A DNA stretch of 48,615 nucleotides from an uncultured Candidatus Peribacteria bacterium (GTDB lineage: Bacteria > Patescibacteriota > Gracilibacteria > UBA4473): positions 11,151 to 59,765 of the forward strand of contig CAYWLU010000001.1 of NCBI GenBank assembly GCA_964459435.1, written 5' to 3'. The position numbers and the translations under genes were made by a program. How positions within the stretch are numbered: position 1 is the stretch's first letter; each line of letters begins with the position of its first letter. Shown in pieces: positions 1,544 through 31,623 of the stretch. The notes below the pieces were generated by a model. The model was not told the origin of the DNA and did no database searches. It saw only the letters and a list, made by a program, of their open reading frames with translations.

Positions 1544-1580
1544 CTTCTCAACTAAAATTTGACACTTCTCTACCCCCCCT

Positions 1581-1666
1581 GTCATTGCGAGCGACTGTAG
1601 GGAGCGTGGCAATCTCCTAATCATAAAGATAAGATTGCTTCGGTCGTTGCACTCTCTCGCAATGAC
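1581..1666. repeat. Family A hairpin repeat (GTCATTGCGAG ... CTCGCAATGAC outer stem, GCAATCT/AGATTGC inner stem)
   Basis: 11-nt terminal inverted repeats at 1581-1591 and 1656-1666 with an inner palindrome. The whole element is the reverse complement of the copy at 8846-8931. It is flanked by a 16-nt direct repeat, AAAATTTGACACTTCT, at 1554-1569 and 1696-1711. Confidence 0.8.
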
Positions 1667-1819
1667 AATGCTGAGGGTATAAAAAGTTACATGAATAAAA
1701 TTTGACACTTCTGGAAAAAAAAGTAGTGTTTATTCGCTTTTTTCTGCGTGTTTAGGGATGAAGTGTACGATTCAGTAGCTCTCCTAGTTACCTCCTAACC
1801 GTGATTAATATCCAATAAC

Positions 1820-2363: not shown

Positions 2364-2367
2364 CATT

Positions 2368-2441
2368 GTCATTGCGAGCAAAGCGAAGCAATCTCAGAGA
2401 TTGCCACGTCATTTTGTTAACACAAAACTCCTCGCAATGAC
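2368..2441. repeat. Family A hairpin repeat
   Basis: GTCATTGCGAG at 2368-2378 and CTCGCAATGAC at 2431-2441. Inner perfect hairpin GCAATCTC/GAGATTGC at 2388-2404. Confidence 0.8.
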
Positions 2442-2453
2442 AACACTTGTTGT

Positions 2454-2488
2454 CTTATTCTTCATTACTCATTATTCATTAATCATTG
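2454..2488 (-). repeat. Tandem heptamer array TAATGA(A/G), 5 units, directly after the guaA stop
   Basis: Minus strand reads TGA(stop) GA CAATGAT TAATGAA TAATGAG TAATGAA GAATAAG, with strict 7-nt period. The same motif follows the ribE stop at 5554-5592. Confidence 0.85.
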
Positions 2489-2490: not shown

Positions 2491-4332
2491 TCACTCCCAT
2501 TCAATTGTTCCGGGAGGTTTACTAGTCACATCTAAGAATACTGCTGATACTTTTCCTTCTTGCAAGATACCAGAAGCAACTTTAGCAAAAAATCTCCAAG
2601 GGAGTTTCCCAACACTAGCAGACATTGCATCAATAGAATCTATCGGACGAAGAATAATTGATTCTTCTCCTGTTTGATTAAAAGACACAGGAATCAAAAC
2701 AGTCGGAAACTGCCATACTTTTTCATAAAGATTCATTTCTAATAAAGTCCGATTCACAATATCATCTGCCGTCTGCAAAAGCTTAACCCTATCTTTGGTA
2801 ATACTCTTTTTGTGTAGTTGTACTTCCCTAATTTCTCCTAAGAAGTTTTTATCTAAAAGCACCAATCCCCTATTAATCTCAGAATAATGATTAATTAAAT
2901 TAGTCGCATGCTTCTCTAATACTTTGAGTTCGAACTCCGCAGAGTTCGAACTCTTAATTCCCGTTAAAATTGCCGGATGACGATATGTCCTAAAATCCCC
3001 CTGCACTCCAACGGACTTAATCGGGAGCACAATAAATGGCTTCTTATTCGTCTGAAGTGTAAAAGAATTAATCTTTCCTAATTCCTTATTTGAAGATTGA
3101 AGTTTGAAGATTGAAGATTCATTTGAGCAAAGGATTCTTACTCCTAGACCTGGACCAGGAAAGGGATGTCTCCAAACAAGATTGTGTGGCAATCCCAAAA
3201 GCTCACCCAGAGCTCTCACTTCGTCCTTATACAGTTCTTTTATTGGTTCTATAATCTTTCCCTCATCTATTAATTTCTGAACCGCAGGGGCTCGATTATG
3301 ATGTGTTTTAATCTTATCGGCATGAGCAGTTCCCCCAGTTTCTATAGTATCTGGATAAATAGTTCCTTGGGCTAGCAACCAATCCTCATGTAAATCATGT
3401 TTCGTAAAAAAATCCTGCTGAACATCTAAAAAAGTATGACCGATTATTTCTCGTTTTTTTTCTGGATCATAAATATTTTCTAGATTAGCTAAAAATCGTT
3501 CTCCTTCGCTAAGAACTGTCAGGTCTGCACCCAGTGCTTTTATTTCTTTCTCCACAAACTCTACTTCCCCTTTTCTCATAAGTCCGATATCTACAAAAAG
3601 ACCCTTAACTCGCTCTGCTCCTAAAATCTCGGTCAAAAGCATAAAACTAACCGTAGAATCTACCCCCCCAGAAACAAAAAGAAAAACATTTTTATCGCCT
3701 ACTTGCTCTTTTATTTTCTTTTTTTCTCCTTCCAAAAATTTCTCCATCGTCCAGTCCCGAGCCACCCCACAAATATCTAGGAAATTTTCAAAAACTTTAG
3801 TCCCAAATTCTGAATGAGTTACTTCTAAATGAAACTGGGTAGAGAAAATATTCTTCTCTGGATGACATAAGGATGCATGCGTACAACAATCTGTTGTTGC
3901 ACAATTAATAAATCCCTCAGCCGGTTCTCCCACTTCATCGACATGATTCATCCAGAAAATAGATTTTTCTGGTACATCCTTAAACAAAGGACATTCTTTG
4001 TTATGAGTTACTTCTGCTCGACCAAATTCCCCTTTCTTTCCTGGAAGAACCTTTCCTCCTAAGGAATGAGTAATGAACTGATGACCATAACAAATACCAA
4101 GGATAGGAAGACCTAAGTCAAAAACAGCTAAATCGCATTTGGGAGAATTCTCTTCAAAAACACTCTGAGGACCTCCAGACATAATAATTCCCTTGATGCT
4201 TTCATCCTTGAATTGCTCTATTGGTGTAGAAATATCCCAAATCTCAGCCAAGACATTCTGCCGTCTAATGCGATTAGCAATGAGATGGGCGTATTGTCCG
4301 CCAAAATCGAGAATGATGATTTTTTCGTGCAT
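2491..4332 (-). CDS. guaA: GMP synthase (glutamine-hydrolysing), long C-terminal form
   Basis: N-terminal class-I amidotransferase (IIILDFGGQYAHLIANRIR, GICYGHQ), PP-loop SGGVDS, and C-terminal ..KPPGTIEWE. The ATG at 4332 (MHEKIIILDFGGQY) is preferred over the listed TTG at 4356. Confidence 0.93.
   Translation of the reverse strand: MHEKIIILDFGGQYAHLIANRIRRQNVLAEIWDISTPIEQFKDESIKGIIMSGGPQSVFEENSPKCDLAVFDLGLPILGICYGHQFITHSLGGKVLPGKKGEFGRAEVTHNKECPLFKDVPEKSIFWMNHVDEVGEPAEGFINCATTDCCTHASLCHPEKNIFSTQFHLEVTHSEFGTKVFENFLDICGVARDWTMEKFLEGEKKKIKEQVGDKNVFLFVSGGVDSTVSFMLLTEILGAERVKGLFVDIGLMRKGEVEFVEKEIKALGADLTVLSEGERFLANLENIYDPEKKREIIGHTFLDVQQDFFTKHDLHEDWLLAQGTIYPDTIETGGTAHADKIKTHHNRAPAVQKLIDEGKIIEPIKELYKDEVRALGELLGLPHNLVWRHPFPGPGLGVRILCSNESSIFKLQSSNKELGKINSFTLQTNKKPFIVLPIKSVGVQGDFRTYRHPAILTGIKSSNSAEFELKVLEKHATNLINHYSEINRGLVLLDKNFLGEIREVQLHKKSITKDRVKLLQTADDIVNRTLLEMNLYEKVWQFPTVLIPVSFNQTGEESIILRPIDSIDAMSASVGKLPWRFFAKVASGILQEGKVSAVFLDVTSKPPGTIEWE
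3089..3120. repeat. TTGAAGA-type heptamer tract inside guaA
   Basis: tttgaagattgaagtttgaagattgaagattc on the plus strand. It is read on the stop-free minus strand as ..SSIFKLQSSNKE.. within guaA. Confidence 0.8.
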
Positions 4333-4347
4333 TATAAAAAAATTATA

Positions 4348-4372
4348 AATCTTCAATCTTCAATCTTCAATT
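4348..4372 (-). repeat. TTGAAGA heptamer array between the ribD stop and the guaA start
   Basis: Plus strand aatcttcaatcttcaatcttcaatt; minus strand AATTGAAGATTGAAGATTGAAGATT, 16 nt upstream of the guaA ATG. Confidence 0.85.
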
Positions 4373-4394
4373 AAAAATGAATAAAACCTAAATC

Positions 4395-5435
4395 CTAAAA
4401 TTTAAATCTCATCAGCACATCACCTTCTAAGTTCTCAACTTCACAGAGTTTGAACTTTTTAAAGTTCGAACTCAAATCTGTGGTAAAACTATTTTTTCCA
4501 ATTCCAAAAATCTCTGACGCTATAAAAAGTTGAATCTCGTCCACTAAATCTTGTTTCAGAAGTTCGGTACAAACCTCTGCTCCACATTCGGTCATAATAG
4601 AATCTATTCCTTTCTTCCCGCATTCTTGTAAAACTTCTTCTAAATTATGAGTTTCAAAGAAATGAATCTTCCTGTCTGGAATACTAAAAATCTTAGCTGT
4701 TTTTGGTATTTCTCTTTTTCCTATCACAATTAAATCGGGATTAGAAGAACCATCTAATCTACAATCTAGTCTAGGATCGTCCTGGAGGATTGTTTCTGTA
4801 GTTGTTAATATTGCAGAGTAATTAGCCCTCATTTCGTGCACTTTCTTTCTAGAAAGCTCATTAGAAATATATTCAATCCCGGGTTCAAAATTTCCAGAAC
4901 CCGGGATCTGCTTTGTTATTTTCCCATCTAAACTCTGGGCTAGTTTAAGTGTTACATATGGTAAACCAGTAGTAACAAACTTCTCTAAAAAAGGATTAAG
5001 TGAGTTACATTTTTCGTTACTTTGTACTTCAACTTCTATTCCTGCTTTCCGTATCTTCTCTAAATTCTCCCCCTTGAATCTCGGATCTAAACTACCAACT
5101 ATTACTTTCTGTGGTCTTTTTTGGATAAGTAAATCTGTGCAACTAGGAGTTTTTTTACCAGAAAACACATCACAAGGTTCTAGGGTTATATACACTTCAC
5201 AATCGCTTAAATTATAATTTTCCCCAAGTTTTTCTATAGCTTCTCTTTCAGCATGTAAACCACCAAATTTTCTATGAACTCCCTCTGAAATAATTTCTTT
5301 CTTTAAAGATTGAAGATTGTAGTTTGAAGATCGTAGTTTAACTATTACACATGCCACTCTAGGATTAGGAGAAACTGCATGAGGATCTACCTGTTCAGCA
5401 AGTTCTATCGCTAATTTCATAAAATCAATTTTCAT
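4395..5435 (-). CDS. ribD: Bifunctional riboflavin biosynthesis protein RibD (deaminase/reductase)
   Basis: Deaminase motifs HAEREAI and TLEPC, then a reductase domain (VTLKLAQSLDGKIT...). It carries two repeat-derived in-frame inserts (see repeats 4878-4905 and 5307-5339). Confidence 0.9.
   Translation of the reverse strand: MKIDFMKLAIELAEQVDPHAVSPNPRVACVIVKLRSSNYNLQSLKKEIISEGVHRKFGGLHAEREAIEKLGENYNLSDCEVYITLEPCDVFSGKKTPSCTDLLIQKRPQKVIVGSLDPRFKGENLEKIRKAGIEVEVQSNEKCNSLNPFLEKFVTTGLPYVTLKLAQSLDGKITKQIPGSGNFEPGIEYISNELSRKKVHEMRANYSAILTTTETILQDDPRLDCRLDGSSNPDLIVIGKREIPKTAKIFSIPDRKIHFFETHNLEEVLQECGKKGIDSIMTECGAEVCTELLKQDLVDEIQLFIASEIFGIGKNSFTTDLSSNFKKFKLCEVENLEGDVLMRFKF
4878..4905. repeat. Family D palindromic element CCCGGGTTCAAAATTTCCAGAACCCGGG, in frame in ribD
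   Basis: 9-bp stem and 10-nt loop, with 28/28 identity to 5728-5755. Translated as PGSGNFEPG in ribD. Confidence 0.9.
5307..5339. repeat. Heptamer tract (TTGAAGA / TTTGTAG types) inside ribD
   Basis: agattgaagattgtagtttgaagatcgtagttt, read on the minus strand as ..LRSSNYNLQSLK.. between the conserved CVIVK and EGVH...HAE segments of the deaminase domain. Confidence 0.8.
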
Positions 5436-5456
5436 TTCTTTTTAAAATTTAAAAAA

Positions 5457-5544
5457 TGTCATACCAGATTTATTCTGGCATCTAACCATAAATAAAGCAG
5501 ATGTTTAATCCATCGCTAGATCCCGCAATAAATGCGGGATGACA
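5457..5544 (+). repeat. Family B double-hairpin repeat (TGTCATACC... / ...GATCCCGCAATAAATGCGGGATGACA)
   Basis: Outer TGTCAT/ATGACA ends, with hairpins CCAGA-tttat-TCTGG and ATCCCGC-aataaat-GCGGGAT. Other copies lie at 13125-13214 and 25018-25205. Confidence 0.8.
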
Positions 5545-5553
5545 TCGTTTTTT

Positions 5554-5592
5554 TTCATTCTTCATTATTCATTACTCATTATTCATTACTCA
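5554..5592 (-). repeat. Tandem heptamer array TAATGA(A/G) beginning at the ribE stop codon
   Basis: Minus strand reads TGA(stop)G TAATGAA TAATGAG TAATGAA TAATGAA GAATGAA. Confidence 0.85.
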
Positions 5593-6198
5593 ATGCTGAA
5601 CATTGAGTATATATTTTCCTAAAATATCAAATTCTAAGTTAACCAAATCTCCAATCTTTTTGTCAGATAAATTAGTTACTTCCCAAGTATGAGAAATGAT
5701 ACAAGTTTCAAACCAATTTTCATTTAACCCGGGTTCAAAATTTCCAGAACCCGGGTTAAAAATATTAGAAACTGTTAAAGAAATTCCATTTACTGCGATA
5801 GAACCTTTTTCCACAACTAACTTGGCATTTTCTTTACTGAGAGAAATTCTAAACAACCAATAATCTCCTTGTCTTTTTAAATCTAAAATCTTTCCTTTCT
5901 CGTCTATATGACCAGTGACAAAATGACCAGAATTCCGTTCTCCTGTTCTAGCAGATCTTTCTAAATTAACACTGTCTCCTTCTTTTGCTTCCCCGAAAGT
6001 TGTCCTATTCCTCGACTCTTCCATAATCTCCACCTTGAACCAATCTTTGTCCATCTCGACAACCGTTGCGCACATCCCAGAAAGAGCAATCGATTCTCCC
6101 AACCCCAGAGGATCCGTTATATTATAATATAATACAGTAAACAAATTCCCTTTGATTTTCTTTATTTCGCCAGTTGTTTCTACAATTCCAGTAAACAT
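5590..6198 (-). CDS. ribE: Riboflavin synthase (alpha chain)
   Basis: MFTGIVETTGEIKKI start and a duplicated barrel pattern (..GESIALSGMCATVV.., ..GSIAVNGISLTVS..). It carries the family D palindrome in frame. Confidence 0.9.
   Translation of the reverse strand: MFTGIVETTGEIKKIKGNLFTVLYYNITDPLGLGESIALSGMCATVVEMDKDWFKVEIMEESRNRTTFGEAKEGDSVNLERSARTGERNSGHFVTGHIDEKGKILDLKRQGDYWLFRISLSKENAKLVVEKGSIAVNGISLTVSNIFNPGSGNFEPGLNENWFETCIISHTWEVTNLSDKKIGDLVNLEFDILGKYILNVQH
5728..5755. repeat. Family D palindromic element, in frame in ribE
   Basis: Identical 28-mer to 4878-4905, translated in the same frame as PGSGNFEPG. The palindrome extends to ttaaCCCGGG...CCCGGGttaa (5724-5759). Confidence 0.9.
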
Positions 6199-6210
6199 GT
6201 AAATGAATTA

Positions 6211-6237
6211 TCAATTATCAATCTTCAAACTACAAAT
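6211..6237 (-). repeat. Heptamer tract (TTGAAGA/TTTGTAG types) just upstream of the ribE start
   Basis: Plus strand tcaattatcaatcttcaaactacaaat; minus strand atttgtagtttgaagattgataattga. Confidence 0.7.
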
Positions 6238-6256
6238 AAAAAACATACATATCACA

Positions 6257-6464
6257 GTCATTCTGGCTTGTCCAGAATCCTGACTAGTAAATATCCTATA
6301 TGAAAACGTTAGTGCTTATCTCGACATCAGTACCACGCTAACGCTTATGAGCATGATAAATTCGCTTCTGATTCTGCTCGTTGAGGATAGCGAACTGTTC
6401 CGAGCTTGCTCGAGAACAAGTAAGCGACGCAAATGATAAGCGAAGCGTCACAAGCCGGAATGAC
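6257..6464 (-). mobile_element. MITE-like element with about 15-nt terminal inverted repeats (GTCATTCYGGCTTGT), carrying a family C core
   Basis: Left end gtcattctggcttgtcc. The right end, reverse-complemented, is gtcattccggcttgtgacgc. The internal about 80 nt, reverse-complemented, closely matches 25035-25115. No coding capacity. Confidence 0.6.
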
Positions 6465-6539
6465 TAAAAGATTGATACCTTTTTGAATTGCCAAAATTAA
6501 TCAATTTTTGTAACGTACCCTCGTAATTTCCCTTTAAGT

Positions 6540-7046
6540 ATGACTGACGACAATAATCAAAATCAGAAGCAAGGAGATACTCAACCAACTCCTCCTGTTC
6601 CACAGGCTGGTCAAGCTCAACCTGCTGAAACTCAACCTCCTGCTCAAACTACTCCCCCAGACCCTAACTCCCGAGTTGGACAATTAGGGGTCAGAGATAA
6701 AAACATCTTTACTATCCCTGCTCATCCCAACACAACTTTTGATGATAAAAACTTTCTTACTCTATTGGAAGGTTCTATTTCTCTTACTATGGAGGAAAAG
6801 AAGCGAGTTATTGATGCTATTCCACGACTAAAAATAGAACAAATAAATGAACTTATTAAAATTTTTGAAGAAGAAAAACAGAAGTTCTCAGAACTAGAAA
6901 AAGAGTTTTCTGATGATGTTTCTAAATTAAAGAAAGAACGAGAAAAAGAAATTCATATAGGAGAAATCAAACAAGAAGAACAAACTGAAAGCGCCTCCGA
7001 AAACGAAGAAGCCGAAGCTCTCAAAAGAAAATTAATGGGAAGCTAG
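6540..7046 (+). CDS. Hypothetical protein with Pro/Gln-rich N-terminus and coiled-coil acidic C-terminus
   Basis: ATG ORF with a low-complexity PTPPVPQAGQAQPAETQPPAQTTPP segment, followed by a charged helical region. No family recognised. Confidence 0.5.
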   Translation: MTDDNNQNQKQGDTQPTPPVPQAGQAQPAETQPPAQTTPPDPNSRVGQLGVRDKNIFTIPAHPNTTFDDKNFLTLLEGSISLTMEEKKRVIDAIPRLKIEQINELIKIFEEEKQKFSELEKEFSDDVSKLKKEREKEIHIGEIKQEEQTESASENEEAEALKRKLMGS

Positions 7047-7127
7047 TCCACAGTCTATAGTTAATAGTCTATAGTTAATAGTCTTTAGTTTTTAGCAATT
7101 AGCTAATGGCTAATTACTAACTTAGAA
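7044..7127 (+). repeat. 12-unit tandem heptamer array with TAG every 7 nt, starting at the stop codon of ORF 6540-7046
   Basis: Units: tagtcca cagtcta tagttaa tagtcta tagttaa tagtctt tagtttt tagcaat tagctaa tggctaa ttactaa cttagaa. TAG falls at 7044, 7058, 7065, 7072, 7079, 7086, 7093 and 7100. Confidence 0.9.
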
Positions 7128-7162
7128 TTTTATACATAATACTTAATACATTATACATAACG
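7128..7162. repeat. Heptamer array of the (T/A)TAATAC type
   Basis: tttatac ataatac ttaatac attatac ataac. Related arrays lie at 21741-21779, 23187-23232 and 25241-25270. Confidence 0.7.
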
Positions 7163-7172
7163 CTCTAACAGC

Positions 7173-7184
7173 ATATTATAATAT
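7173..7184. repeat. All-AT palindrome ATATTATAATAT
   Basis: gcATATTATAATATcc in a convergent intergenic region, followed 8 nt later by a TTGAAGA array. Confidence 0.8.
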
Positions 7185-7192
7185 CCATCCTT

Positions 7193-7218
7193 AATTGAAG
7201 ATTGAAAATTGAAGATTG
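7193..7218 (+). repeat. TTGAAGA heptamer array abutting the stop of ORF 7221-7667
   Basis: aattgaagattgaaaattgaagattg. Confidence 0.85.
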
Positions 7219-7220
7219 TT

Positions 7221-8772: not shown

Positions 8773-8845
8773 ATATATCAATAATACACCAAGTTAATAC
8801 TAAAGGTTAAAAATAAAATTTAAAAGTTTTCATGCCCCCAGTATT

Positions 8846-8931
8846 GTCATTGCGAGAGAGTGAAACAATCGAAGCAATCTCATAATCTCAAGCAAGAGAT
8901 TGCCACGCTCCCTATAGTCGCTCGCAATGAC
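8846..8931. repeat. Family A hairpin repeat (reverse orientation of 1581-1666)
   Basis: GTCATTGCGAG at 8846-8856 and CTCGCAATGAC at 8921-8931. The right half, gagattgccacgctccctatagtcgctcgcaatgac, is the reverse complement of the left half of copy 1581-1666. Confidence 0.8.
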
Positions 8932-8965
8932 AGCTTTGTAAAAAGCTATAAATTTGCAATAAATA

Positions 8966-10201: not shown

Positions 10202-10255
10202 GAAAGTCTAAAAGTTAAAAAGTTTAAAAACTAAAAAGATATAAAGCCCAAATAG

Positions 10256-10269
10256 TATATTATAATATA
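10256..10269. repeat. All-AT palindrome TATATTATAATATA
   Basis: Perfect 14-nt palindrome in the convergent pilT/LCP intergenic region, followed by a TTGAAGA array. Confidence 0.85.
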
Positions 10270-10280
10270 ATACTCAACCT

Positions 10281-10313
10281 TAATTGAAGATTGAAGATTG
10301 ATAATTGAAGATT
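10281..10313 (+). repeat. TTGAAGA heptamer array abutting the stop of the LCP gene
   Basis: aattgaagattgaagattgataattgaagattt. Confidence 0.85.
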
Positions 10314-10316
10314 TAT

Positions 10317-11660
10317 CTAATTTGTTCCTAAAATAATCTGAATATCTATTAAATTGTTCGGATCTATTGATTCTACTAATACATTTTCTAGATGACTGGT
10401 TTCAAGCAAACTAGCTAAAAAATTTGTAGTTTTAAGAGTTTTTTCTGGAGTAAAATTTTTGAGAAAAGTCTTATATACTGGAATATCTGAATCATAATTA
10501 CCTACTTCAATGATATGCAAACCTAAACGACGAAGTCGTTCTGCAATTTTTGATGCTTTACCTTCTAATTTAGAACCATTAAGAACAGATATTTGAGCAT
10601 TTTCTAAAAGAATCTCTGGATGAATTAAAACTAAATCTAAAAATGTCTGCGTATCTTTTAGGTTCTCTGGTAATAAAACATATTGACCACCATAAAATTC
10701 CATAGCTGGAGTAAACAAAAATCCTCCCCGCTTCATAACATCGTCATTAAGAACCGCCGAAACTGCATTAGAGTAATCAATAGCTAGTCCCATCTTTGCC
10801 AAAGCCACAACCTGAGTCAGACCCAAGTCAGTATTAACATGCTTACGATAAATCTGGAAAAATTCAGCCAATTTACCAAAATCAGTTAAAAGACTTAAAT
10901 CTTCGGCTCTTTTTCGAAGAGCAAGAATGAGGTCTTGTTGTCTTTGTGCCCGATCATAGTCCGATGAAGTTTTTCTACTTCGAGCATATTTAAGAGCAGT
11001 TGCTCCATCTAAATGTTGCAACCCTTTTCTAATCACAAATGTTTGATAACCATAATCTCTATCTGGATAAAAAGGATCTTCTATGTCTGTTGGCACAAAA
11101 ATTTCTATTCCATTAAGAGCATCTACGACTTCCTCAAAAACCTTAAAATTAATTACTGCTCCATAATGGATTCTAATTCCAGAAAACTCAGATATAGCAC
11201 TCTTAATAATTTCTAAACCTTTTCTATCTCCATGTTTATAACGAGCGGCAGCATATATTTCATTAAGTTTTCTTTCTCCTATTTTAGAAGGAATAAATAA
11301 ATCTCTAGGTAAACTCAAAAATGCCACCGAAGGATTTTGCGGATTAAAAGAAGCAATCATGATGGAATCTGAAAGATTTCCTCCTTCTGCCCCATCTCCT
11401 CCCACTCCCAGTAATAGAATATTCGTATGACCATTAGAATCTTGACTCAAAGGACCAAGGGAAAGAATATCTCTTGTTTTTTGAGCAAAATGAAAATCTG
11501 AACTCATAATTGCAGAAGCTATCCCAAAAACAATTGATAAACTAATTATGATAGCCAAAACTACTGATAGCTTGGGTCCAAAGTATCTGACCCACCTTCT
11601 CCACCATTTGTTTTTTATTTTTTGCTGATTCCTAGATATCTTGCGAACTTTAAAATTCAT
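10317..11660 (-). CDS. LytR-CpsA-Psr (LCP) family cell-envelope transferase
   Basis: N-terminal TM anchor, then LLLGVGGDG...NLSDSIMIASFNP...LSLPRDL, which is typical of LCP domains, followed by a C-terminal LytR_C-like region. Confidence 0.85.
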   Translation of the reverse strand: MNFKVRKISRNQQKIKNKWWRRWVRYFGPKLSVVLAIIISLSIVFGIASAIMSSDFHFAQKTRDILSLGPLSQDSNGHTNILLLGVGGDGAEGGNLSDSIMIASFNPQNPSVAFLSLPRDLFIPSKIGERKLNEIYAAARYKHGDRKGLEIIKSAISEFSGIRIHYGAVINFKVFEEVVDALNGIEIFVPTDIEDPFYPDRDYGYQTFVIRKGLQHLDGATALKYARSRKTSSDYDRAQRQQDLILALRKRAEDLSLLTDFGKLAEFFQIYRKHVNTDLGLTQVVALAKMGLAIDYSNAVSAVLNDDVMKRGGFLFTPAMEFYGGQYVLLPENLKDTQTFLDLVLIHPEILLENAQISVLNGSKLEGKASKIAERLRRLGLHIIEVGNYDSDIPVYKTFLKNFTPEKTLKTTNFLASLLETSHLENVLVESIDPNNLIDIQIILGTN

Positions 11661-11803: not shown

Positions 11804-13178
11804 AACATATGTATTATTCACATTGATGACTCCTATTTACCAAACTTTTATTTTTGAAGATTTTTCTTTTGATCAAGAGAATAAAAAATTAATTCTGAAA
11901 TACTCTCTAGATGAAGAATTGTTTTTCACAGAAGAAGTAATTTTTGATTTTAAGTTTATAGAAAATATTAATAAAAAAGCCCTCCAAAATGCTTTATTTG
12001 GTGTTTGGGTTATGCTTGGAATCTCTTATTTCAAAACTTTTCTTCCTCCTGAGATTAAATTCAAAAAATATGGACTCACTTCTGATCAAGCAAAATTCTT
12101 CCAAAAAACTTGGGAAAAGGGTCTAGGAGAATTCTTTTACCAAAATAAAATCTCCCCAAAAGGAAAAATAAACTTTTCAAGTGATGAAAAATCCGCATTA
12201 ACAAATTCTGTCTCCTTAGCTGTCTCAGGCTCTATTATGCCTCTGGGAGGAGGTAAAGATTCTTTAGTAACCGCCGAAATCTTAAAAGAAAACAATGAAG
12301 ATTTTTCCACTTGGACAGTAGGAGAGTTTCCTTTTCTACAAAATATGGTTGATAAACTAGAAGTTCCACATTTAATGGTTAAGCGTCATATAGATCTAAA
12401 ACTTCTAGATTTAAATAAAAATGGTGCCCTAAATGGACATGTTCCTATTTCGGCTATATTAGCTTTCCTAGGAGTAACAAGTGCTATTCTTACAGGCAAA
12501 AAAAACATCATTCTCTCTAATGAGAATTCTGCGAGTGAACCAACAGTAGAAGATATTAATCATCAGTATTCTAAATCTTTGGAATTCGAAAAAGATTTTC
12601 AAGAATATGTAAAAAGTTTTATCTCACCAGACCTAAATTATTTTTCTTTTCTCCGTCCCCTATCAGAACTAAAAATCGCTCAAATCTTTTGTGAAAAATG
12701 TTTAGATAAATATGAAAAAGACTTTTCTTCCTGTAATCGCAATTTTAAAATCAAAAATCAAAAATCAAAAAATCTAACTTGGTGCGGAGAATGTCCTAAA
12801 TGTGCTTTTGTATTTGCAATCTTTGCCCCGTTTCTAGAAAGAGACAAACTTCTAGCTCTTTTTGGCAAAAATCTTTTTGCAGATAATAATTTAGACCAAA
12901 CTTTTCGAGAACTTCTAGGACTAGAAAAAACGAAACCCTTTGAATGTGTTGGAGAAATAGAAGAAGTAAGAAAGGCTTTAGAAATGTCTAAAGATAAATG
13001 GCCAGAATTATCTAAATTTGATTTCCCTAAACCTAATTTTGATCTAGAAGAACTTAATCCGCATTTGATGCCAGAAAGGTTTGAAAAAATATTTAACCTT
13101 CACATATCCAATATTACAAATATCTGTCATACCGGATTTATTCCGGTATCTAGTCATAAAAATAATGCAAATAATTAA
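11799..13178 (+). CDS. PP-loop (GGGKDS) protein, probable MurL-type UDP-MurNAc-L-Ala-L-Glu epimerase
   Basis: ATP-pyrophosphatase-like motif PLGGGKDSLV and a C-terminal CGECPKC motif. About 460 aa, lying directly upstream of and in the same orientation as a MurD2-like ligase. Start is uncertain (ATG 11799 inside a repeat, or ATG 11826). The last roughly 17 codons come from repeat 13125-13214. Confidence 0.55.
   Translation: MTTYVLFTLMTPIYQTFIFEDFSFDQENKKLILKYSLDEELFFTEEVIFDFKFIENINKKALQNALFGVWVMLGISYFKTFLPPEIKFKKYGLTSDQAKFFQKTWEKGLGEFFYQNKISPKGKINFSSDEKSALTNSVSLAVSGSIMPLGGGKDSLVTAEILKENNEDFSTWTVGEFPFLQNMVDKLEVPHLMVKRHIDLKLLDLNKNGALNGHVPISAILAFLGVTSAILTGKKNIILSNENSASEPTVEDINHQYSKSLEFEKDFQEYVKSFISPDLNYFSFLRPLSELKIAQIFCEKCLDKYEKDFSSCNRNFKIKNQKSKNLTWCGECPKCAFVFAIFAPFLERDKLLALFGKNLFADNNLDQTFRELLGLEKTKPFECVGEIEEVRKALEMSKDKWPELSKFDFPKPNFDLEELNPHLMPERFEKIFNLHISNITNICHTGFIPVSSHKNNANN
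12747..12774 (+). repeat. AAAATCA heptamer tract inside the MurL-like CDS
   Basis: aaaatca aaaatca aaaatca aaaaatc, translated as ..FKIKNQKSKN.. just before the CGECPKC motif. Confidence 0.75.
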
Positions 13179-13214
13179 TTCACAGCTAGATCCCGCAATA
13201 AATGCGGGATGACA
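13125..13214 (+). repeat. Family B double-hairpin repeat spanning the 3' end of the MurL-like CDS
   Basis: tgtcataccggatttattccggtatcta...gctagatcccgcaataaatgcgggatgaca. It encodes the terminal CHTGFIPVSSHKNNANN plus the stop. Confidence 0.8.
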
Positions 13215-13258
13215 CAGAAAGGAGATGACAATATATTGGTATACAAATTCATATAAAC

Positions 13259-14500
13259 ATGAAATTCAAAACTCTTAAAGATTTCAAAGAAATTCTCCTC
13301 TACGGCTATGGCGTAGAAGGAAAATCTACCAAGAAATTTTTGCAAAAACATTTTCCAAAATTAACAATAACTATTGTTGATGATAAAAAACCAGCAGTGA
13401 ACTTTGAAAATTATGATCTCCTAATTCTTAGTCCTGGCGTACCTAGAAATAAGGTAAAAAATGTTTCTCCAAACAAAATTACCAGCCAAACCGAACTTTT
13501 CTTCTCCAATCTACCAGAAGAAAAAAGAAAAAAAATAATTGGTATTACGGGTACTAAAGGAAAATCCACCACCACTAAATTCTGTGCCGAAGTATTAGAA
13601 AATGCCGGACATACTGCGAAGATTGGCGGTAATTATGGAATTCCCTTGTTAGATCTTTTTGATAATTTTTTGGCTGATAAATTCGAATTTATCGTTGCCG
13701 AACTATCTAGCTATCAACTAGAAAATTTATCCGTTTCCCCAGGAATCGCTATTTTACTAAATTTCTTTCAAGATCATTTAGATCGTCATCACACGATGCA
13801 GAACTATTTCTTGGCTAAAAAAAATCTCTGGTCTCATCAACAATCCGGAGATTCCTTTATTGTTACCGAAATTAGTCGAAATTTAATTGGTCAAACTCCC
13901 CAAAAGCCTATTTTTACCTCTAAAATCCCCGCCGATTCTTTTCCAAAAAACTCTATTTTTAAAGCAGGGTATTGGTTAGAAAACTTTGGAACCATAAAAA
14001 AATTAGCTGAACTTTTAAATATCCCAGAAGAAATTATTTTTGATACCGCTCAAAATTTTAAAGGATTACCACATCGTCTAGAATTCTTTAAAACCAGAAA
14101 AGAAATCAAGTTCTATGATGATGCCATTAGTGTTAATCCAGATGCTACTTTGGCAGGTATCACCTTCTTGGATAAAAACTTAGGATCTATCATCCTCGGA
14201 GGACAAGACCGAAAACAAAATTTTTCTGCTTTAATTAACAAACTTTCGCTCCTAAACACACACATCATTATTTTAAAATCAGAAGTAAGTAATTTACTTC
14301 TAAAAAATTGTCAGAAAAATAAAATTCCTAAAGAAAAAATATCGGTAGCTAAAGACCTAGCAGAAGCGGTTGATATTGCCTTCCAGAAAACTCCTTCAAA
14401 ACATATCTGTCTTCTATCTCCCTCTAGCCCAAGCTATGACCAATTTAAAAATTTTAAAGAGAAAGGAGATTTCTTTCAGAAGTTAGTTAAGAAATATTAA
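13259..14500 (+). CDS. murD: Mur ligase, MurD family (MurD2-like N-terminus)
   Basis: Mur ligase P-loop GITGTKGKSTT. The N-terminal YGYGVEGKS resembles the GWGREG signature I recall for L-Glu-adding MurD2, not the canonical GLGxxG. Adjacent to the MurL-like gene. Confidence 0.8.
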   Translation: MKFKTLKDFKEILLYGYGVEGKSTKKFLQKHFPKLTITIVDDKKPAVNFENYDLLILSPGVPRNKVKNVSPNKITSQTELFFSNLPEEKRKKIIGITGTKGKSTTTKFCAEVLENAGHTAKIGGNYGIPLLDLFDNFLADKFEFIVAELSSYQLENLSVSPGIAILLNFFQDHLDRHHTMQNYFLAKKNLWSHQQSGDSFIVTEISRNLIGQTPQKPIFTSKIPADSFPKNSIFKAGYWLENFGTIKKLAELLNIPEEIIFDTAQNFKGLPHRLEFFKTRKEIKFYDDAISVNPDATLAGITFLDKNLGSIILGGQDRKQNFSALINKLSLLNTHIIILKSEVSNLLLKNCQKNKIPKEKISVAKDLAEAVDIAFQKTPSKHICLLSPSSPSYDQFKNFKEKGDFFQKLVKKY

Positions 14501-14517
14501 ATTAAGCTAAAAAAAAC

Positions 14518-14546
14518 TTGCAATATTATATAAAATTATATATAAT
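14518..14546 (+). promoter_or_regulatory. Promoter of toxin-antitoxin pair 1 (TTGCAA, 17 nt, TATAAT) with flanking 11-bp inverted repeat
   Basis: TTGCAA at 14518-14523 and TATAAT at 14541-14546. AATATTATATA (14522-14532) and TATATAATATT (14551-14561) form an inverted repeat bracketing the -10, so it is operator-like. Confidence 0.55.
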
Positions 14547-14573
14547 TAAATATATAATATTCTATATACAAAA

Positions 14574-14810
14574 ATGATAGCAATAATTACCAAGTCTCAA
14601 CTCCAAAAAAATATTGGGGATATTGGAAAACAAATATGTACTATCGTTAATCATGGAAAGCCAGAAGCCCTTATTCTCCCTTATTTCGAAGGATGTGAAG
14701 AGTTGATGGAAGATTATCTAGAAGATTGCGAAATGGCTATGAACAAAAAAAATCTAAAGAAAAGATATAAAAAATCCCTAGATAGCGGTTTATCTAATTT
14801 TGTTATTTAA
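14574..14810 (+). CDS. Type II antitoxin (Phd/YefM-like)
   Basis: A 78-aa acidic protein lying 8 nt upstream of a RelE/ParE toxin. The N-terminus (ITKSQLQKNIGDI...GKPEALILPY) resembles Phd/YefM. Confidence 0.6.
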   Translation: MIAIITKSQLQKNIGDIGKQICTIVNHGKPEALILPYFEGCEELMEDYLEDCEMAMNKKNLKKRYKKSLDSGLSNFVI

Positions 14811-17850: not shown

Positions 17851-17880
17851 AATCAATTGTCAATTATCAATCTTCAATTA
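17851..17880 (-). repeat. Heptamer tract (TTGAAGA/TTGATAA types) immediately upstream of the mutS ATG
   Basis: Minus strand taattgaagattgataattgacaattgatt, followed by ATG. Confidence 0.7.
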
Positions 17881-17937
17881 TTAGAAAAGAATCAATATCT
17901 TTTTATCGGTTTTGATGAGTTTAGCAAGTGAAAAGCG

Positions 17938-17953
17938 TTATATTATAATATAA
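17938..17953. repeat. All-AT palindrome TTATATTATAATATAA
   Basis: Perfect 16-nt palindrome in the divergent mutS / antitoxin intergenic region. Confidence 0.85.
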
Positions 17954-17979
17954 TGTTTTAATAAATCAGAAAAAATAAC

Positions 17980-21618: not shown

Positions 21619-21655
21619 TGTATAAAGTATTATGTATTGTGTATCATGTATAAAA
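21619..21655. repeat. Heptamer array (TGTATNN) directly after the stop of ORF 19837-21618
   Basis: tgtataa agtatta tgtattg tgtatca tgtataa. Confidence 0.75.
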
Positions 21656-21740
21656 AATATCTCATCAATCAATAACTTACCCCTTACAATCTTTTTATCC
21701 TTTTCTTCTGTAAAATAATTCTCTGTATCAAATTCTTATG

Positions 21741-21779
21741 TATTTAATACTTAATACATTATACTTAATACATCATACT
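21741..21779. repeat. Heptamer array (TAC(T/A)TAA type) reaching the miaB stop
   Basis: tatttaa tacttaa tacatta tacttaa tacatca tac. Confidence 0.75.
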
Positions 21780-23186: not shown

Positions 23187-23232
23187 TCTTCTCCCCGTAT
23201 ACAAAATACTTAATACATAATACTAAATACTG
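23187..23232. repeat. Heptamer array (NNAATAC type)
   Basis: cgtatac aaaatac ttaatac ataatac taaatac tgctttt, lying between the miaB start and the prs stop. Confidence 0.75.
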
Positions 23233-25017: not shown

Positions 25018-25205
25018 TGTCATACCGGACTTGTTGACGCTTCGCTTGTCGTCTGCGTCGTTCACTTGCTTATGAGCAAGCTCAACGCAGTTCGCCATCC
25101 TCGACGAGCGATATCTAACCATAAAAACAAATGATTCATATTAAAAGTGTAAAATAAGCAAGTTATTAATTCACAGCCAGATCCCGCAATAAATGCGGGA
25201 TGACA
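25018..25205 (+). repeat. Family B repeat with a nested family C insert
   Basis: The ends match 5457-5544 and 13125-13214. The first hairpin is interrupted after taccgga by about 85 nt (25030-25115) that match the reverse complement of the 6257-6464 interior. Confidence 0.75.
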
Positions 25206-25240: not shown

Positions 25241-25270
25241 TATACTTAATACGAAATACTAAATACTGCA
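25241..25270. repeat. Heptamer array (NNAATAC type) just upstream of the tatD start
   Basis: gttatac ttaatac gaaatac taaatac. Confidence 0.75.
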
Positions 25271-28034: not shown

Positions 28035-28458
28035 ATGAAAAACATGAATAGAAAAAATTCAGAATTCACTAAAAAAGAATTTGAAAAAACAATACAAAAT
28101 GCTCGTGAAATATATTTTTCATGGAAAAATAGTTTTTCTTGTCCTTTTTTTAAAAGTAAAATTCACATTACGAGATCTGGATGGCAACACTTAATGGCAG
28201 AACAGCGCCCCAAACACCAAAAATTCTGGCGAGCAAAGTATTTTAAATATATACCAGACATTATTATAAAAAACTACCACCGTTCAAAAAGAAACTATTT
28301 ATTTTAATAAAGCTGGTAAAATGCATATCTGGTCTTTTGTATCAATCGAAAAAGGCAATATTTTAGAAGTAGTAATCCGACAGATAGAAAAACAACCCAA
28401 ACATCTTTATAGTTTCATTTATAAAGGAGTTGCTCCAACAGTAATTAATATAGATTGA
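28035..28458 (+). pseudogene. Frameshifted hypothetical gene (about 140 aa if repaired)
   Basis: ORF 28035-28307 (MKNMNRKNSEF...IPDIIIKNY..) and the frame-1 ORF ending at 28458 (..KAGKMHIWSFVSIEKGNILEVVIRQIEKQPKHLYSFIYKG..) overlap around the A-run at 28266-28273. Its 3' 98 nt are duplicated at 29203-29300. Confidence 0.45.
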
Positions 28459-28968: not shown

Positions 28969-29202
28969 AAAAAAGAATGGAATTATGGAGCATATGCTTC
29001 GCTTCGCTCGTGTATAATCTCATATTTTTAATAAAATAAAAACAAAATATCTAATAGTTGGAACCAAGTTCATGAAACTGTCTTGCAATGGAATGATTAG
29101 CCTAAACAAGTAGAAATAAACATGCCTATTCCTTTATAAGTATTGGCTTGTAGATAATAAAAATAAGACACCAAAGGAGATTGAAACTATGGTGAGAGTT
29201 AA

Positions 29203-31594: not shown

Positions 31595-31623
31595 CCCGGG
31601 TTCAAAATTTCCTAGAACCCGGG
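31595..31623. repeat. Family D palindromic element, intergenic copy (29 nt)
   Basis: CCCGGGTTCAAAATTTCCtAGAACCCGGG is the ribD/ribE 28-mer with one extra T in the loop. Confidence 0.85.

What the first reader, a model, noticed from the sequence alone, without database searches (positions are those of the whole stretch)
5554..5592. TAATGA(A/G) heptamer array begins at the ribE stop codon, and the same array follows guaA
Seen: the minus strand reads TGA(stop)G TAATGAA TAATGAG TAATGAA TAATGAA GAATGAA. Each unit holds TAA and TGA, so three units place double stops in all three frames. A nearly identical array follows the guaA stop (2454-2488). Two unrelated genes thus end in the same stop-rich periodic tail.
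Basis: seen in the sequence. Interest (0 to 1): 0.65.

Follow-up and report, generated by a model that had tools for sequence, protein, structure and literature searches.

The report
Stop-rich heptamer repeats at gene ends
Two genes of an uncultured marine bacterium are followed by the same short 7-base tandem repeat, one example of a known and still unexplained habit of 7-base repeats to sit just after stop codons on the coding strand, not a special termination device.

Summary
On the minus strand ribE ends CAT TGA G, followed by TAATGAA TAATGAG TAATGAA TAATGAA GAATGAA (5592-5554). guaA ends GAG TGA GA, followed by CAATGAT TAATGAA TAATGAG TAATGAA GAATAAG (2493-2454). There are 7 matches against 0.08 expected by chance.

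The window comes from a marine Gracilibacteria/Peregrinibacteria-like (CPR) bacterium that uses the standard genetic code. Its genome is full of 7-nt arrays: 26 against 2.6 expected, in at least 6 unit families. Of 19 intergenic arrays, 13 lie within 7 nt of an ORF boundary. Others sit in frame inside guaA, ribD and a radical-SAM gene.

The ribE array persists in relatives at 72-82% protein identity. There it supplies ribD's ATG or is translated as a ribE tail. A compact relative has no arrays at all.

In about 240 loci from other bacteria, TAATGAR arrays lie within 10 nt of a stop 83 times in the sense orientation and once in the antisense orientation. The orientation is therefore not random.

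Sister families at the same position have no stop codons in the sense orientation (CTTCAAT, AAGGGAC). G-rich heptamer repeats of Xanthomonas and Nostoc are already reported to hug stop codons on the coding strand.

Verdict: this is a new member of a known class, heptameric simple-sequence repeats. It ends ORFs in practice, but selection for three-frame stops is not shown.

The parts
5554..5592 (-). TAATGAR heptamer array A: TGA(stop) G + TAATGAA TAATGAG TAATGAA TAATGAA GAATGAA. The stop of ribE is in register with the array (TGAG is the 3' part of a unit).
   Evidence: Conserved at the orthologous site in L122/L224 (32 nt identical) and as a GAATGAA variant in L123 and X4.
2454..2488 (-). TAATGAR heptamer array B: CAATGAT TAATGAA TAATGAG TAATGAA GAATAAG. 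It starts 2 nt after the guaA stop TGA (2491-2493).
   Evidence: A homologous array lies after the guaA TGA in L125. It is absent in L122, X3/X4, L124 and L127.
5590..6198 (-). ribE (riboflavin synthase, 202 aa). It contains an in-frame palindromic insertion at 5723-5762.
4395..5435 (-). ribD (deaminase/reductase, 346 aa). It holds an in-frame heptamer array (5306-5339) and an in-frame palindromic element (4873-4912).
2491..4332 (-). guaA (GMP synthase; start at 4332 as called on the identical contig L121). It holds an in-frame CTTCAAT-type array at 3090-3119 (SSIFKLQSSNKE).
5455..5546 (-). Inverted-repeat (MITE/REP-like) element directly after array A. It has outer stem GAUGUCAU/AUGACAUU and two inner hairpins, followed by a U-run. 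It is one of 3 copies in the window (also about 13160-13214 and 25151-25205).
   Evidence: fold z = -3.9; the array itself is unpaired; D3. The same element follows the array in L123.
2367..2442 (-). MITE-like element TGTCATTGCGAG...CTCGCAATGACA after array B, preceded by the small hairpin GACAACAAGTGTTGTC (2439-2454). Related 88-nt copies lie at 1580-1667 and 8845-8932.
   Evidence: (D6, D12)
4342..4371 (-). ATTGAAG x3 array between ribD and guaA. Together with TATAAT it forms a promoter-like TTGAAG-17-TATAAT, 9 nt before the guaA ATG.
   Evidence: The spacer is about 95% identical in L122.

Best explanation
The two tracts are copies of one family (AATGA core; TAATGAA/TAATGAG, with a 14-nt super-unit) of heptanucleotide simple-sequence arrays. 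Such arrays pervade this bacterial lineage. Shown: (1) arrays of period 7 are about 10-fold over-represented, and most sit within 0-7 nt of ORF boundaries. (2) At the ribE-ribD junction, array-poor relatives carry a short stop/start overlap that is already 7-periodic. In L126 this is ACA ATG AAC AAT GAG TAA TAA TG, where ribE's ...MNNE* overlaps ribD's ATG AGT AAT. (3) The window and L122 carry that sequence amplified in 14-nt steps. (4) Depending on the lineage, the array supplies ribD's start codon (L122), is translated as an 11-residue ribE tail with the in-frame TGA changed to TTA (L123/X4), or lies wholly after ribE's TGA (the window, where a later inverted-repeat insertion separated it from ribD). 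Inferred: the array arose by slipped-strand or unequal-exchange amplification of the junction. A copy, or an older homologue, sits after guaA. Because every unit holds TAA, TGA and ATG, a sense-oriented array cannot be read through, so it marks, and sometimes creates, the end of the upstream ORF. In practice it therefore works as a three-frame stop pad in an unstructured stretch of 3' UTR. Its placement right after the stop on the coding strand is the general behaviour of bacterial heptameric repeats, including families without stops. The cause of that placement, either an RNA-level 3'-UTR role or a strand-specific mutational origin, remains unknown.
For: Period-7 excess: 26 arrays against 2.55 in shuffles, and period 14 at 9 against 0.85. 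There are at least 6 unit families. ORF-boundary abutment: 13 of 19 against 2.9 expected, 0 of 5000 randomisations. Junction series from L126, L128, L125, L124, L127, L122, L123 and the window. Period 14 matches at 100% in L122. Other ribE homologues have array-coded tails (...STMNNE...NYELRMSNDE...NLQSSIINLQ). The array block is 32/32 nt identical between the window and L122, while third codon positions are only 64-69% identical. The compact relative L124 has 0 arrays; the window, L122 and L123 have 0.56-1.29 per kb. A third gene of the lineage ends TAG A CAATGAA GAATGTA GAATGAA TAATGAA TAATGAG... (L190). Other contigs of the same metagenomes match only the array, so it is dispersed and multicopy. 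Cross-phylum sense bias at stops is 83:1 within 10 nt. In one search, 15 ORFs end on a TAA inside the array at offsets of -3 (5), -10 (8) and -17 (2) nt from its first perfect unit, one value per reading frame. So ORFs simply run into the array. The array is unpaired in the predicted RNA fold. Published parallels: TAACTGA repeats overlap 13-14 stop codons in forward orientation (PMC4679880). GGGAATC and GGGGAYT heptamers lie 0-50 bp after stops on the coding strand, on average 28 nt from the upstream ORF and 160 nt from the downstream ORF (PMC4692102).
Against: The 32-nt identity with L122, and the near-identity of the guaA-end array with L125 (guaA only 70% identical), are more conservation than a neutral slippage product should show. 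The A/G order of units is conserved too, although it is irrelevant for stops. L127 has the same CGT TGA G end of ribE without any array, so the stop may be older than the array, or the array was lost there. Slippage does not explain why stop-free families also start 2-5 nt after stops, or why the guaA copy is present in the window and L125 but absent in closer relatives. No transcript data exist for this organism.
Confidence: 0.55

Rival explanations
1. Selected fail-safe terminator. The array is kept because it places TAA and TGA in all three frames just after a weak or risky stop, catching read-through and frameshifted ribosomes. This could matter especially for UGA stops in a clade related to lineages that reassign UGA to glycine.
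For: All TAATGAR arrays seen in the lineage are sense-oriented and lie 0-2 nt after the stop: ribE TGA, guaA TGA, L122 ribE TGA, L125 guaA TGA, L190 TAG. At guaA, the lineages with a TGA stop (window, L125) have the array, and those with TAG or TAA (L122, X3/X4, L124, L127) do not. In L125 a gene caller that reads TGA as sense stops at the array's TAA. The cross-phylum sense bias is 83:1. The sequence is conserved beyond neutral expectation.
Against: TGA is an ordinary stop here: 11 of 44 ORFs end in it, there are 3 ATGA overlaps, and there are no internal TGAs. Only 2 of the 11 TGA-ending genes carry the array. The distance to the next in-frame TAA/TAG after TGA stops is not significantly shorter than after other stops (median 7 against 11 codons, p = 0.16). 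Stop-free arrays (CTTCAAT x3, AAGGGAC x2) occupy the same post-stop position, as do published stop-free G-rich heptamers. Two units would suffice, yet arrays reach about 20 units elsewhere. The guaA correlation rests on one homologous pair.
Confidence: 0.15
2. Strand-specific RNA element of the 3' UTR or intercistronic region. The heptamer arrays (several families) are binding platforms for an RNA-binding protein (S1, Csp, CsrA or KH type), or they are signals for mRNA stability or translational coupling and re-initiation. TAATGAR would be one such platform, its ATG and stop content giving chains of mini-ORFs (MNNE*).
For: Within families the orientation relative to the abutted gene is mostly constant: ATGTATT/AAGTATT 3 of 3 after stops, CTTCAAT 3 of 3 after stops and ATTGAAG 4 of 4 before starts, AAGGGAC 2 of 2. 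Arrays keep their position at orthologous sites while other spacer sequence changes. Sequence is conserved above the neutral level. In L122, L126 and L128 ribD starts inside the array or junction. The array is unstructured. MacGregor proposed the same for TAACTGA repeats.
Against: At least six unrelated unit sequences would need several factors or a sequence-independent reader. At orthologous 3' ends different families replace each other (the pilin and LytR genes have CTTCAAT in the window but AAGGGAC or ATTAGCT in L122). One module occurs in the same DNA orientation next to a stop in one place and next to a start in another (23199-23231 and 25242-25267). There is no candidate protein and no RNA data.
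Confidence: 0.2
3. Dispersed mobile cassette. The arrays are pre-formed about 30-40 nt units spread by an unknown insertion or gene-conversion process. They are tolerated only where they do not break genes, and they have no function.
For: A nearly identical 31-nt CTTCAAT-type block is in frame at two different sites of guaA in the window and in L122. Arrays share flanks across copies (D1, D2, D7, D10). The window's guaA array and the L190 array share the 5' edge ACAATGAW; the L125 copy starts CAATGAA. Many metagenome contigs match only the array. Assembler breakpoints fall at the arrays. Arrays and palindromic elements are inserted in frame in ribE, ribD, guaA and a radical-SAM gene.
Against: Orientation-neutral insertion predicts antisense copies just after stops, and these are essentially absent (1 against 83). 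The ribE array can be derived from the local junction sequence. No transposase, target duplication or terminal structure was found.
Confidence: 0.1

Closest known systems
Heptameric simple-sequence repeats of bacteria: long SSRs of Mrazek et al. 2007 as cited in PMC4679880, and GGGAATC / GGGGA(T/C)T repeats of Xanthomonas and Nostoc (Rehm et al. 2015, PMC4692102)
   Same: Head-to-tail 7-nt units of about 3-6 copies, with strong genome-wide excess of period 7. They are mostly intergenic and sit much nearer the upstream ORF than the downstream one. After ORFs they lie within 0-50 bp of the stop codon, or overlap it, on the coding strand. Orientation is reversed when they lie upstream of ORFs (compare CTTCAAT after stops with ATTGAAG before starts here). 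Function is unknown.
   Different: The units here are AT-rich, cannot form G-quadruplexes, and several families coexist. The host is a CPR/Patescibacteria-like marine bacterium. The TAATGAR unit contains two stop codons and a start codon. Arrays are also frequent in frame inside housekeeping enzymes.
TAACTGA direct repeats of marine Beggiatoaceae, Cyanobacteria and Bacteroidetes (MacGregor 2015, PMC4679880)
   Same: A heptamer made of TAA + TGA + 1 nt, with 2-6 copies. In forward orientation it closes all three frames, so it can overlap only the last codons of an upstream ORF (13-14 cases). Reverse copies are translated inside ORFs. Split sets with related 7-mers occur. The phylogenetic spread (Cyanobacteria and Bacteroidota dominate my TAATGAR hits) is alike.
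   Different: The unit sequence differs. TAACTGA repeats mostly end 1 nt before a start codon and replace the ribosome-binding site, whereas TAATGAR arrays hug the upstream stop (median 1.5-16 nt) and lie far from the next start (median 85-157 nt). In BOGUAY one heptamer dominates; here there are at least 6 families.
STRR (short tandemly repeated repetitive sequences) of heterocystous cyanobacteria (Mazel et al. 1990; from my own knowledge, and mentioned in PMC4692102)
   Same: Tandem heptamers dispersed through the genome, mainly non-coding, in several unit families per genome.
   Different: The organism and the units differ (CCCCAGT, TTGGTCA, CAACAGT). No stop-codon content or stop-codon adjacency is part of the STRR definition.
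Tandem (fail-safe) stop codons and out-of-frame 'hidden' stops (general knowledge)
   Same: Extra stops lie shortly after the primary stop: an in-frame TAA 6 codons after ribE's TGA and 4 codons after guaA's TGA, with stops in the other two frames as well.
   Different: Fail-safe stops are single codons, not 35-nt periodic arrays. No enrichment after TGA stops was detectable in this window.
Rickettsia palindromic elements (RPE) and other MITE/REP elements inserted in frame in genes (Ogata et al. 2000; own knowledge)
   Same: This genome also tolerates short repeats in frame in essential enzymes. A 32-40 nt palindrome encoding PGSGNFEPG lies in both ribE and ribD, and heptamer arrays lie in guaA, ribD and a radical-SAM gene.
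   Different: This concerns the neighbouring elements, not the TAATGAR arrays. The arrays are not palindromic and cannot be read through in the sense orientation.

Membership tests
Bacterial heptameric simple-sequence repeats (LSSR class) | Head-to-tail copies of a 7-nt unit, at least 3 units, few or no indels | tested here: met
   TRF: 5554-5592 has period 7 x5.6 (87% matches) and period 14 x2.8 (92%). 2457-2487 has period 7/14 (88-89%), with 0 indels.
Bacterial heptameric simple-sequence repeats (LSSR class) | Genome-wide over-representation of period 7 relative to other periods and to chance | tested here: met
   26 period-7 rows against 2.55 in 20 dinucleotide shuffles. Periods 8-11 are near expectation. 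The same holds in relatives L122 and L123; there are none in L124.
Bacterial heptameric simple-sequence repeats (LSSR class) | [quoted passage not shown] | tested here: met
   Both arrays lie 0-2 nt after the stop in sense orientation. 13 of 19 intergenic arrays in the window lie within 7 nt of an ORF boundary. Across phyla the sense:antisense ratio is 83:1 within 10 nt of a stop.
Bacterial heptameric simple-sequence repeats (LSSR class) | Copy-number instability between strains (slippage) | tested here: inconclusive
   A contig of run X1 covers the ribE array without differences. Only assembled contigs, not reads, were available. Between lineages the unit number and unit type differ: window 5 units, L122 4.4, L123 about 5 GAATGAA-type units.
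TAACTGA-type stop-containing direct repeats (MacGregor 2015) | Unit TAACTGA | tested here: not met
   The unit is TAATGA(A/G).
TAACTGA-type stop-containing direct repeats (MacGregor 2015) | Forward orientation gives stops in all three frames, so copies overlap only the very end of upstream ORFs | tested here: met
   The sense strand has stops in 3 frames and the antisense strand in 0-1. The ribE stop is in register with the array.
TAACTGA-type stop-containing direct repeats (MacGregor 2015) | Arrays end within a few nt of the downstream start codon, replacing the ribosome-binding site | tested here: not met
   Window: 118 nt from the end of the array (5554) to the ribD start at 5435, and no co-oriented downstream gene after guaA. 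Across phyla the median distance to the next start is 85-157 nt. It is met only in L122, where ribD's ATG lies in the last unit.
Cyanobacterial STRR | Heterocystous cyanobacterial host and units STRR1-3 | tested here: not met
   The closest named homologues are from Candidatus Gracilibacteria/Peregrinibacteria MAGs. T4SS-pilin and ComEC context. The units differ.
Intrinsic (Rho-independent) terminator | GC-rich hairpin followed by a U-run | tested here: not met
   The array is unpaired in the centroid fold. The hairpin + T-run at 5481-5461 belongs to the inverted-repeat element downstream. There is no enrichment of hairpin + T-run after 79 stop-abutting arrays (3/79 against 57/617).
Fail-safe tandem stop codons | A second in-frame stop within a few codons, enriched relative to comparable genes | tested here: inconclusive
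   An in-frame TAA is present at +6 (ribE) and +4 (guaA) codons. However, TGA-ending genes as a group are not significantly different from the others (median 7 against 11, p = 0.16, n = 11 against 33).
Known RNA families (Rfam 15) | Match at gathering threshold | tested here: not met
   Only two tRNAs were found in the window. There is nothing at the arrays and no FMN riboswitch.

The most novel reading that the evidence does not exclude
The heptamer arrays that start right after stop codons are strand-specific functional elements at gene ends, and TAATGAR is the clearest case. This would be a widespread but undescribed 'stop pad' or 3'-UTR platform found in CPR, Cyanobacteria, Bacteroidota and others. 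It would be kept by selection: 32 nt are identical across lineages whose synonymous sites are only about 65% identical, and it is homologous at guaA between lineages only 70% identical in protein. It would make termination robust to read-through, frameshifting and, in Gracilibacteria-related lineages, to ambiguity of UGA.
Probability: 0.15. Interest if true: 0.7.

Novelty: new member of a known kind. Interest (0 to 1): 0.42.

Why it matters
Bacterial heptameric repeats have been known since the 1990s and were shown in 2015 to cluster at stop codons on the coding strand, but nobody knows why. This window adds three things. First, a CPR-type genome in which about half of the spacer architecture is built from such arrays. 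Second, a case where the origin can be traced, namely amplification of a stop/start overlap between two genes. Third, a clean cross-phylum statistic (83:1 sense against antisense at stops) for one stop-rich unit. There are also practical consequences. Such arrays define ORF ends, create or remove C-terminal tails and start codons, break assemblies, and mislead gene callers. In L125 a caller that reads TGA as sense extends guaA into the array.

Tried and rejected
1. Cyanobacterial origin (STRR). This was my first guess, from the heptamers and the GTCATTGCGAG-type elements. I rejected it because the ribE homologues are Gracilibacteria/Peregrinibacteria-like.

2. Genetic code 25 (UGA = Gly) for the window. 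Rejected. All 11 in-frame TGAs sit at ORF ends, three of them in ATGA overlaps, and guaA ends at the universal IEWE.

3. The array as a terminator, or as a spacer before a terminator. No structure was found in the array and there is no enrichment of hairpin + T-run after arrays.

4. The array as target-site duplications left by the neighbouring inverted-repeat elements. The units do not flank those elements.

5. A known RNA family or riboswitch. None was found.

6. Closer in-frame backup stops after TGA. Not significant.

7. Transcript evidence. No RNA runs hold this sequence.

8. Strain-level copy-number polymorphism. Only assembled contigs were available, and these are identical in X1.

9. 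P0010's locus could not be read because no DNA is held for it.

No paper on heptamer arrays in CPR/Gracilibacteria was found in the held library.

Full report
**1. What is in the sequence**

On the minus strand the ORF 5590-6198 ends ...CAG CAT TGA. It is followed by G TAATGAA TAATGAG TAATGAA TAATGAA GAATGAA and then an A-run. The ORF is a riboflavin synthase with two lumazine-binding domains.

The ORF 2491-4332/4356 is GMP synthase. It ends ...ATT GAA TGG GAG TGA and is followed by GA CAATGAT TAATGAA TAATGAG TAATGAA GAATAAG.

The degenerate 21-mer (TAATGAR)3 with up to 3 mismatches hits only these two places, 7 overlapping times, all on the minus strand. The chance expectation is 0.08. TRF finds both arrays with periods 7 and 14, and they are 91% identical over 32 nt.

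One detail needs correction. The two genes are not unrelated in position. ribE, ribD (4395-5435) and guaA are consecutive and co-oriented, and this order is conserved in relatives.

**2. The organism and its code**

The nearest named ribE homologues (at most 60% identity) come from Candidatus Gracilibacteria and Peregrinibacteria MAGs. The neighbourhood holds T4SS-type pilins, a T2SSE ATPase, ComEC, LytR and MutS. The sequence is found in marine and aquatic metagenomes. GC content is about 34%.

Some Gracilibacteria read UGA as glycine, so I checked the code. Of 44 long ORFs, 28 end in TAA, 11 in TGA and 5 in TAG. Three TGA stops are ATGA start/stop overlaps. No gene is split by TGA, and guaA's TGA follows the universal C-terminus IEWE. 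TGA is a stop here.

**3. The arrays are part of a genome-wide population**

TRF finds 26 period-7 rows, against 2.55 in dinucleotide shuffles. It finds 9 period-14 rows against 0.85. Other periods are near expectation.

The units fall into at least six families:
- TAATGAR
- ATTGAAG/CTTCAAT
- ATGTATT/AAGTATT
- TAGCTAT
- AGTCTAT-AGTTAAT
- TCTAAGT

Of 19 intergenic arrays, 13 lie within 7 nt of an ORF boundary, against 2.9 expected when each array is placed at random in its own spacer. None of 5000 randomisations reached 13.

Ten genes in the window have an array within about 11 nt after the stop. The sense strand of those arrays has stops in three frames for some families (TAATGAR, AGTCTAT/AGTTAAT, TAGCTAT). 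It has stops in no frame for CTTCAAT (after the genes at 7221, 10317 and 47946). In relative L122, AAGGGAC follows two genes in the sense orientation and also has no stops.

Arrays also lie in frame inside genes, always in the stop-free orientation:
- 3090-3119 in guaA
- 5306-5339 in ribD
- 42869-42943 (75 nt) within the radical-SAM domain of ORF 41788-43512

**4. Orthologous loci**

L122 (NCBI FLOH01000190.1; ribE 72% identical by BLAST, 78% over the aligned columns; guaA 90%) and its near-twin L224 have CGT TGA G TAATGAA TAATGAG TAATGAA TAATGAG TAATAAAAAAAA. ribD's annotated ATG lies in the last unit. Thirty-two nt are identical to the window, while third codon positions of the three genes are only 64-69% identical.

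L123 (82% identical) and the X4 relative have GAATGAA GAATTAA AAATGAA GAATGAA GAATGAA. This is read as the ribE tail ...RNEELKMKNEE*, and the first in-frame TGA is replaced by TTA. It is followed by the same inverted-repeat element as in the window.

L124 (69% identical) is 96% coding, has overlapping ribE/ribD and no heptamer arrays at all.

More distant relatives show what the junction looks like without amplification:
- L126 has ...TCA ACA ATG AAC AAT GAG TAA TAA TG. ribE's ...STMNNE* overlaps ribD's ATG AGT AAT, which already amounts to about 2.5 degenerate units of AATGAxx.
- L128 has a TACGAAT x4 array that codes ribE's tail and holds ribD's ATG.
- L125 has AAT AAT GGA TAA overlapping ATG GAT AAT.
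- L127 has CGT TGA G and no array.

Other ribE homologues end in array-like tails such as MNNE, RMSNDE and NLQSSIINLQ.

The ATG AAT AAT GAG TAA of the window's array is thus the old ribE end (MNNE*) still visible in the repeat. I infer that the array arose by tandem amplification of the stop/start overlap, in 14-nt steps. TRF gives period 14 at 100% match in L122.

In the window, a later insertion of a 90-nt inverted-repeat element (5455-5546) moved ribD away from the array, and ribD acquired a new start.

**5. The guaA copy**

L122, L224 and the X3/X4 relative have a different palindromic element right after a TAG or TAA stop. L124 and L127 have neither an array nor that element.

L125, whose guaA is only 70% identical, has GAG TGA GAATCAATGAA TAATGAA TAATGAG TAATTAGG. 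This is clearly homologous to the window's GAG TGA GACAATGAT TAATGAA TAATGAG TAATGAA.

Either the array is old and was lost several times, or it spreads between sites. A third gene of the lineage (L190, from the same Tara assembly as L122, GC 34.5%) ends TTG TAG A CAATGAA GAATGTA GAATGAA TAATGAA TAATGAG TAATGAA TAATGAG TAATGAA. This copy is again in the sense orientation and starts 1 nt after the stop.

Other contigs of the metagenomes X1-X4 match only the 33-40 nt of the array and then diverge on both sides. Assemblies break at the arrays. The family is therefore multicopy.

**6.

I scanned one genome per species for (TAATGAR)3 (more than 120 loci; mostly Cyanobacteria and Bacteroidota, also Chloroflexota, Acidobacteriota, Firmicutes and others). 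Separately, I scanned JGI metagenome contigs for TAATGAATAATGAGTAATGAA (more than 120 loci).

With ORFs of at least 100 aa as genes:

| Measure | Genome set | Metagenome set |
|---|---|---|
| Sense arrays within 10 nt of, or overlapping, the upstream stop | 32 of 71 | 51 of 84 (median distance 1.5 nt) |
| Antisense arrays within 10 nt of a stop | 1 of 48 | 0 of 37 |
| Convergent spacers: nearer the co-oriented gene vs the other gene | 18:1 | 15:3 |
| Gene pairs on one strand (tandem): sense vs antisense | 39:20 | 50:9 |

In the genome set, 15 ORFs end on a TAA inside the array, at offsets of -3 (5 cases), -10 (8) and -17 (2) nt from its first perfect unit. Each reading frame gives one offset, so ORFs simply run into the array. 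Others end at a TGA or TAA that lies in a partial first unit or directly abuts the array, for example ...aga TGA g taatgag (Chryseobacterium) and ...ttc TGA g taatgaa (Bacteroidales).

The tails are therefore not a randomly oriented dispersed repeat, and the ribE layout is common across phyla.

**7. Why I do not conclude that the stops are the selected function**

- Stop-free families occupy the same post-stop position in this lineage.
- The literature describes the same geometry for stop-free G-rich heptamers in Xanthomonas and Nostoc. They lie within 0-50 bp of the stop on the coding strand, some overlapping it, on average 28 nt from the upstream ORF and 160 nt from the downstream one (PMC4692102).
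- Only 2 of the window's 11 TGA-ending genes carry the array. TGA-ending genes do not have a significantly nearer in-frame TAA/TAG (p = 0.16).
- Arrays elsewhere reach about 20 units.

What the stops certainly do is set where ORFs end. In L123 they end ribE after an 11-residue tail. In L125 a gene caller that read TGA as sense stopped at the array's TAA.

**8. What else was tested**

- The array is unpaired in the predicted RNA fold. The element downstream folds well (z = -3.9) and is followed by a U-run.
- Hairpin + T-run motifs are not enriched after 79 stop-abutting arrays (3/79 against 57/617 after other genes).
- Rfam finds only two tRNAs.
- No RNA-seq run holds the sequence.

**9. Assessment**

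Shown:
- The arrays are real, homologous, sense-oriented and stop-abutting.
- They belong to a lineage-wide and phylum-spanning class.
- The ribE copy sits on an amplified stop/start junction.
- Orientation at stops is strongly non-random.

Inferred:
- The arrays originated by slippage or unequal exchange.
- The stop content is a consequence that filters where and in which orientation such a unit can persist, not a designed backstop.

Unexplained:
- The conservation (32/32 nt with L122, and homology with L125) is higher than expected for a neutral repeat.
- Heptamer arrays of any sequence begin 0-5 nt after stop codons on the coding strand.

These last two points keep a functional reading alive, either a 3'-UTR RNA platform or a fail-safe stop pad. 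I put the two functional rivals together at about 0.35.

Noticed in passing
window 5723-5762 (in ribE), 4873-4912 (in ribD), 31590-31629 (between tRNA-Ala and ORF 31721): A palindromic element of about 32-40 nt, (T/A)ACCCGGGTTC TGGAAATTTT GAACCCGGG(T/A)T, is inserted in frame in both ribE and ribD, where it encodes PGSGNFEPG. It is absent from L122 and from the X3/X4 relative (joint 5715->5765). This resembles the Rickettsia palindromic elements that live inside protein-coding genes.
   Followed up: partly
window 3090-3119 (guaA), 5306-5339 (ribD), 42869-42943 (radical-SAM ORF 41788-43512); L122 12931-12972 and 13121-13145 (guaA), 10761-10791 (ribD): Heptamer arrays sit in frame inside housekeeping enzymes, always in the stop-free orientation. 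A nearly identical 31-nt block (AATCTTCAAACTTCAATCTTCAAATAARGAA, peptide IFKLQSSNKE) lies at two different sites of guaA in the window and in L122. This points to dispersal of pre-formed arrays. In L122's guaA and L123's ribE tail the in-frame TGA of GAATGAA units is replaced by TTA.
   Followed up: partly
window 4333-4394; L122 11660-11721: The ribD-guaA spacer is about 95% identical between the window and L122, although third codon positions are only 64-69% identical. It reads ATTGAAG x3 + TATAAT + 9 nt + ATG, a TTGAAG-17-TATAAT promoter-like site. That would give a leaderless or nearly leaderless guaA mRNA. ATTGAAG/ATTGATA arrays also abut the starts of ribE (6206-6222) and mutS (17852-17881) with no Shine-Dalgarno sequence.
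   Followed up: partly
window 7047-7220, 10202-10316, 21619-21772, 47817-47945: Convergent spacers are built almost entirely from modules: arrays abutting both stops, plus a perfect palindrome TATATTATAATATA (also at 2345-2363 and 17935-17962). The spacer 21619-21772 has the same ATGTATT/AAGTATT array after both convergent genes, so the two arrays are inverted copies of each other.
   Followed up: no
window 1580-1667, 2367-2442, 8845-8932; 5490-5544, 13160-13214, 25151-25205: There are two families of MITE/REP-like inverted-repeat elements: TGTCATTGCGAG...CTCGCAATGACA of 76-88 nt, and ...AGATCCCGCAATAAATGCGGGATGACA. They lie in spacers and often directly follow heptamer arrays. No transposase lies nearby.
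   Followed up: partly
L125 (GCA_021736215.1) 12780-14636: The only in-frame TGA in 5617 called codons of this 'Candidatus Gracilibacteria' contig is the canonical stop of guaA after IEWE. All 20 genes checked, guaA included as called, end in TAA or TAG. The gene call reads through the TGA to the TAA in the TAATGAA array. Either TGA is almost unused in this organism or the code-25 assumption over-extends the gene.
   Followed up: partly
L124 (Logan SRR12088350 contig, 7.7 kb): A relative with the same gene order is 96% coding, has overlapping or abutting genes, and has no heptamer arrays and no inverted-repeat elements. The repeat load is therefore a lineage-specific gain, or a loss in L124, and not a property of the whole group.
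   Followed up: partly
window 28352-28456 and 29201-29305: A 105-nt direct repeat (89% identical) flanks the region around ORF 28586-28861, in the lowest-GC part of the window (about 30%).
   Followed up: no
window 10203-10246, 33562-33614: Period-8 and period-16 arrays (AAAAGTTA; ACTTTTAA) also start 1 nt after the stop of the T2SSE gene or about 40 nt after another stop (ORF 32643-33524). The stop-abutting habit is not strictly limited to 7-nt units.
   Followed up: no
window 4395-6540: No FMN riboswitch or other Rfam family was detected near the riboflavin genes.
   Followed up: yes
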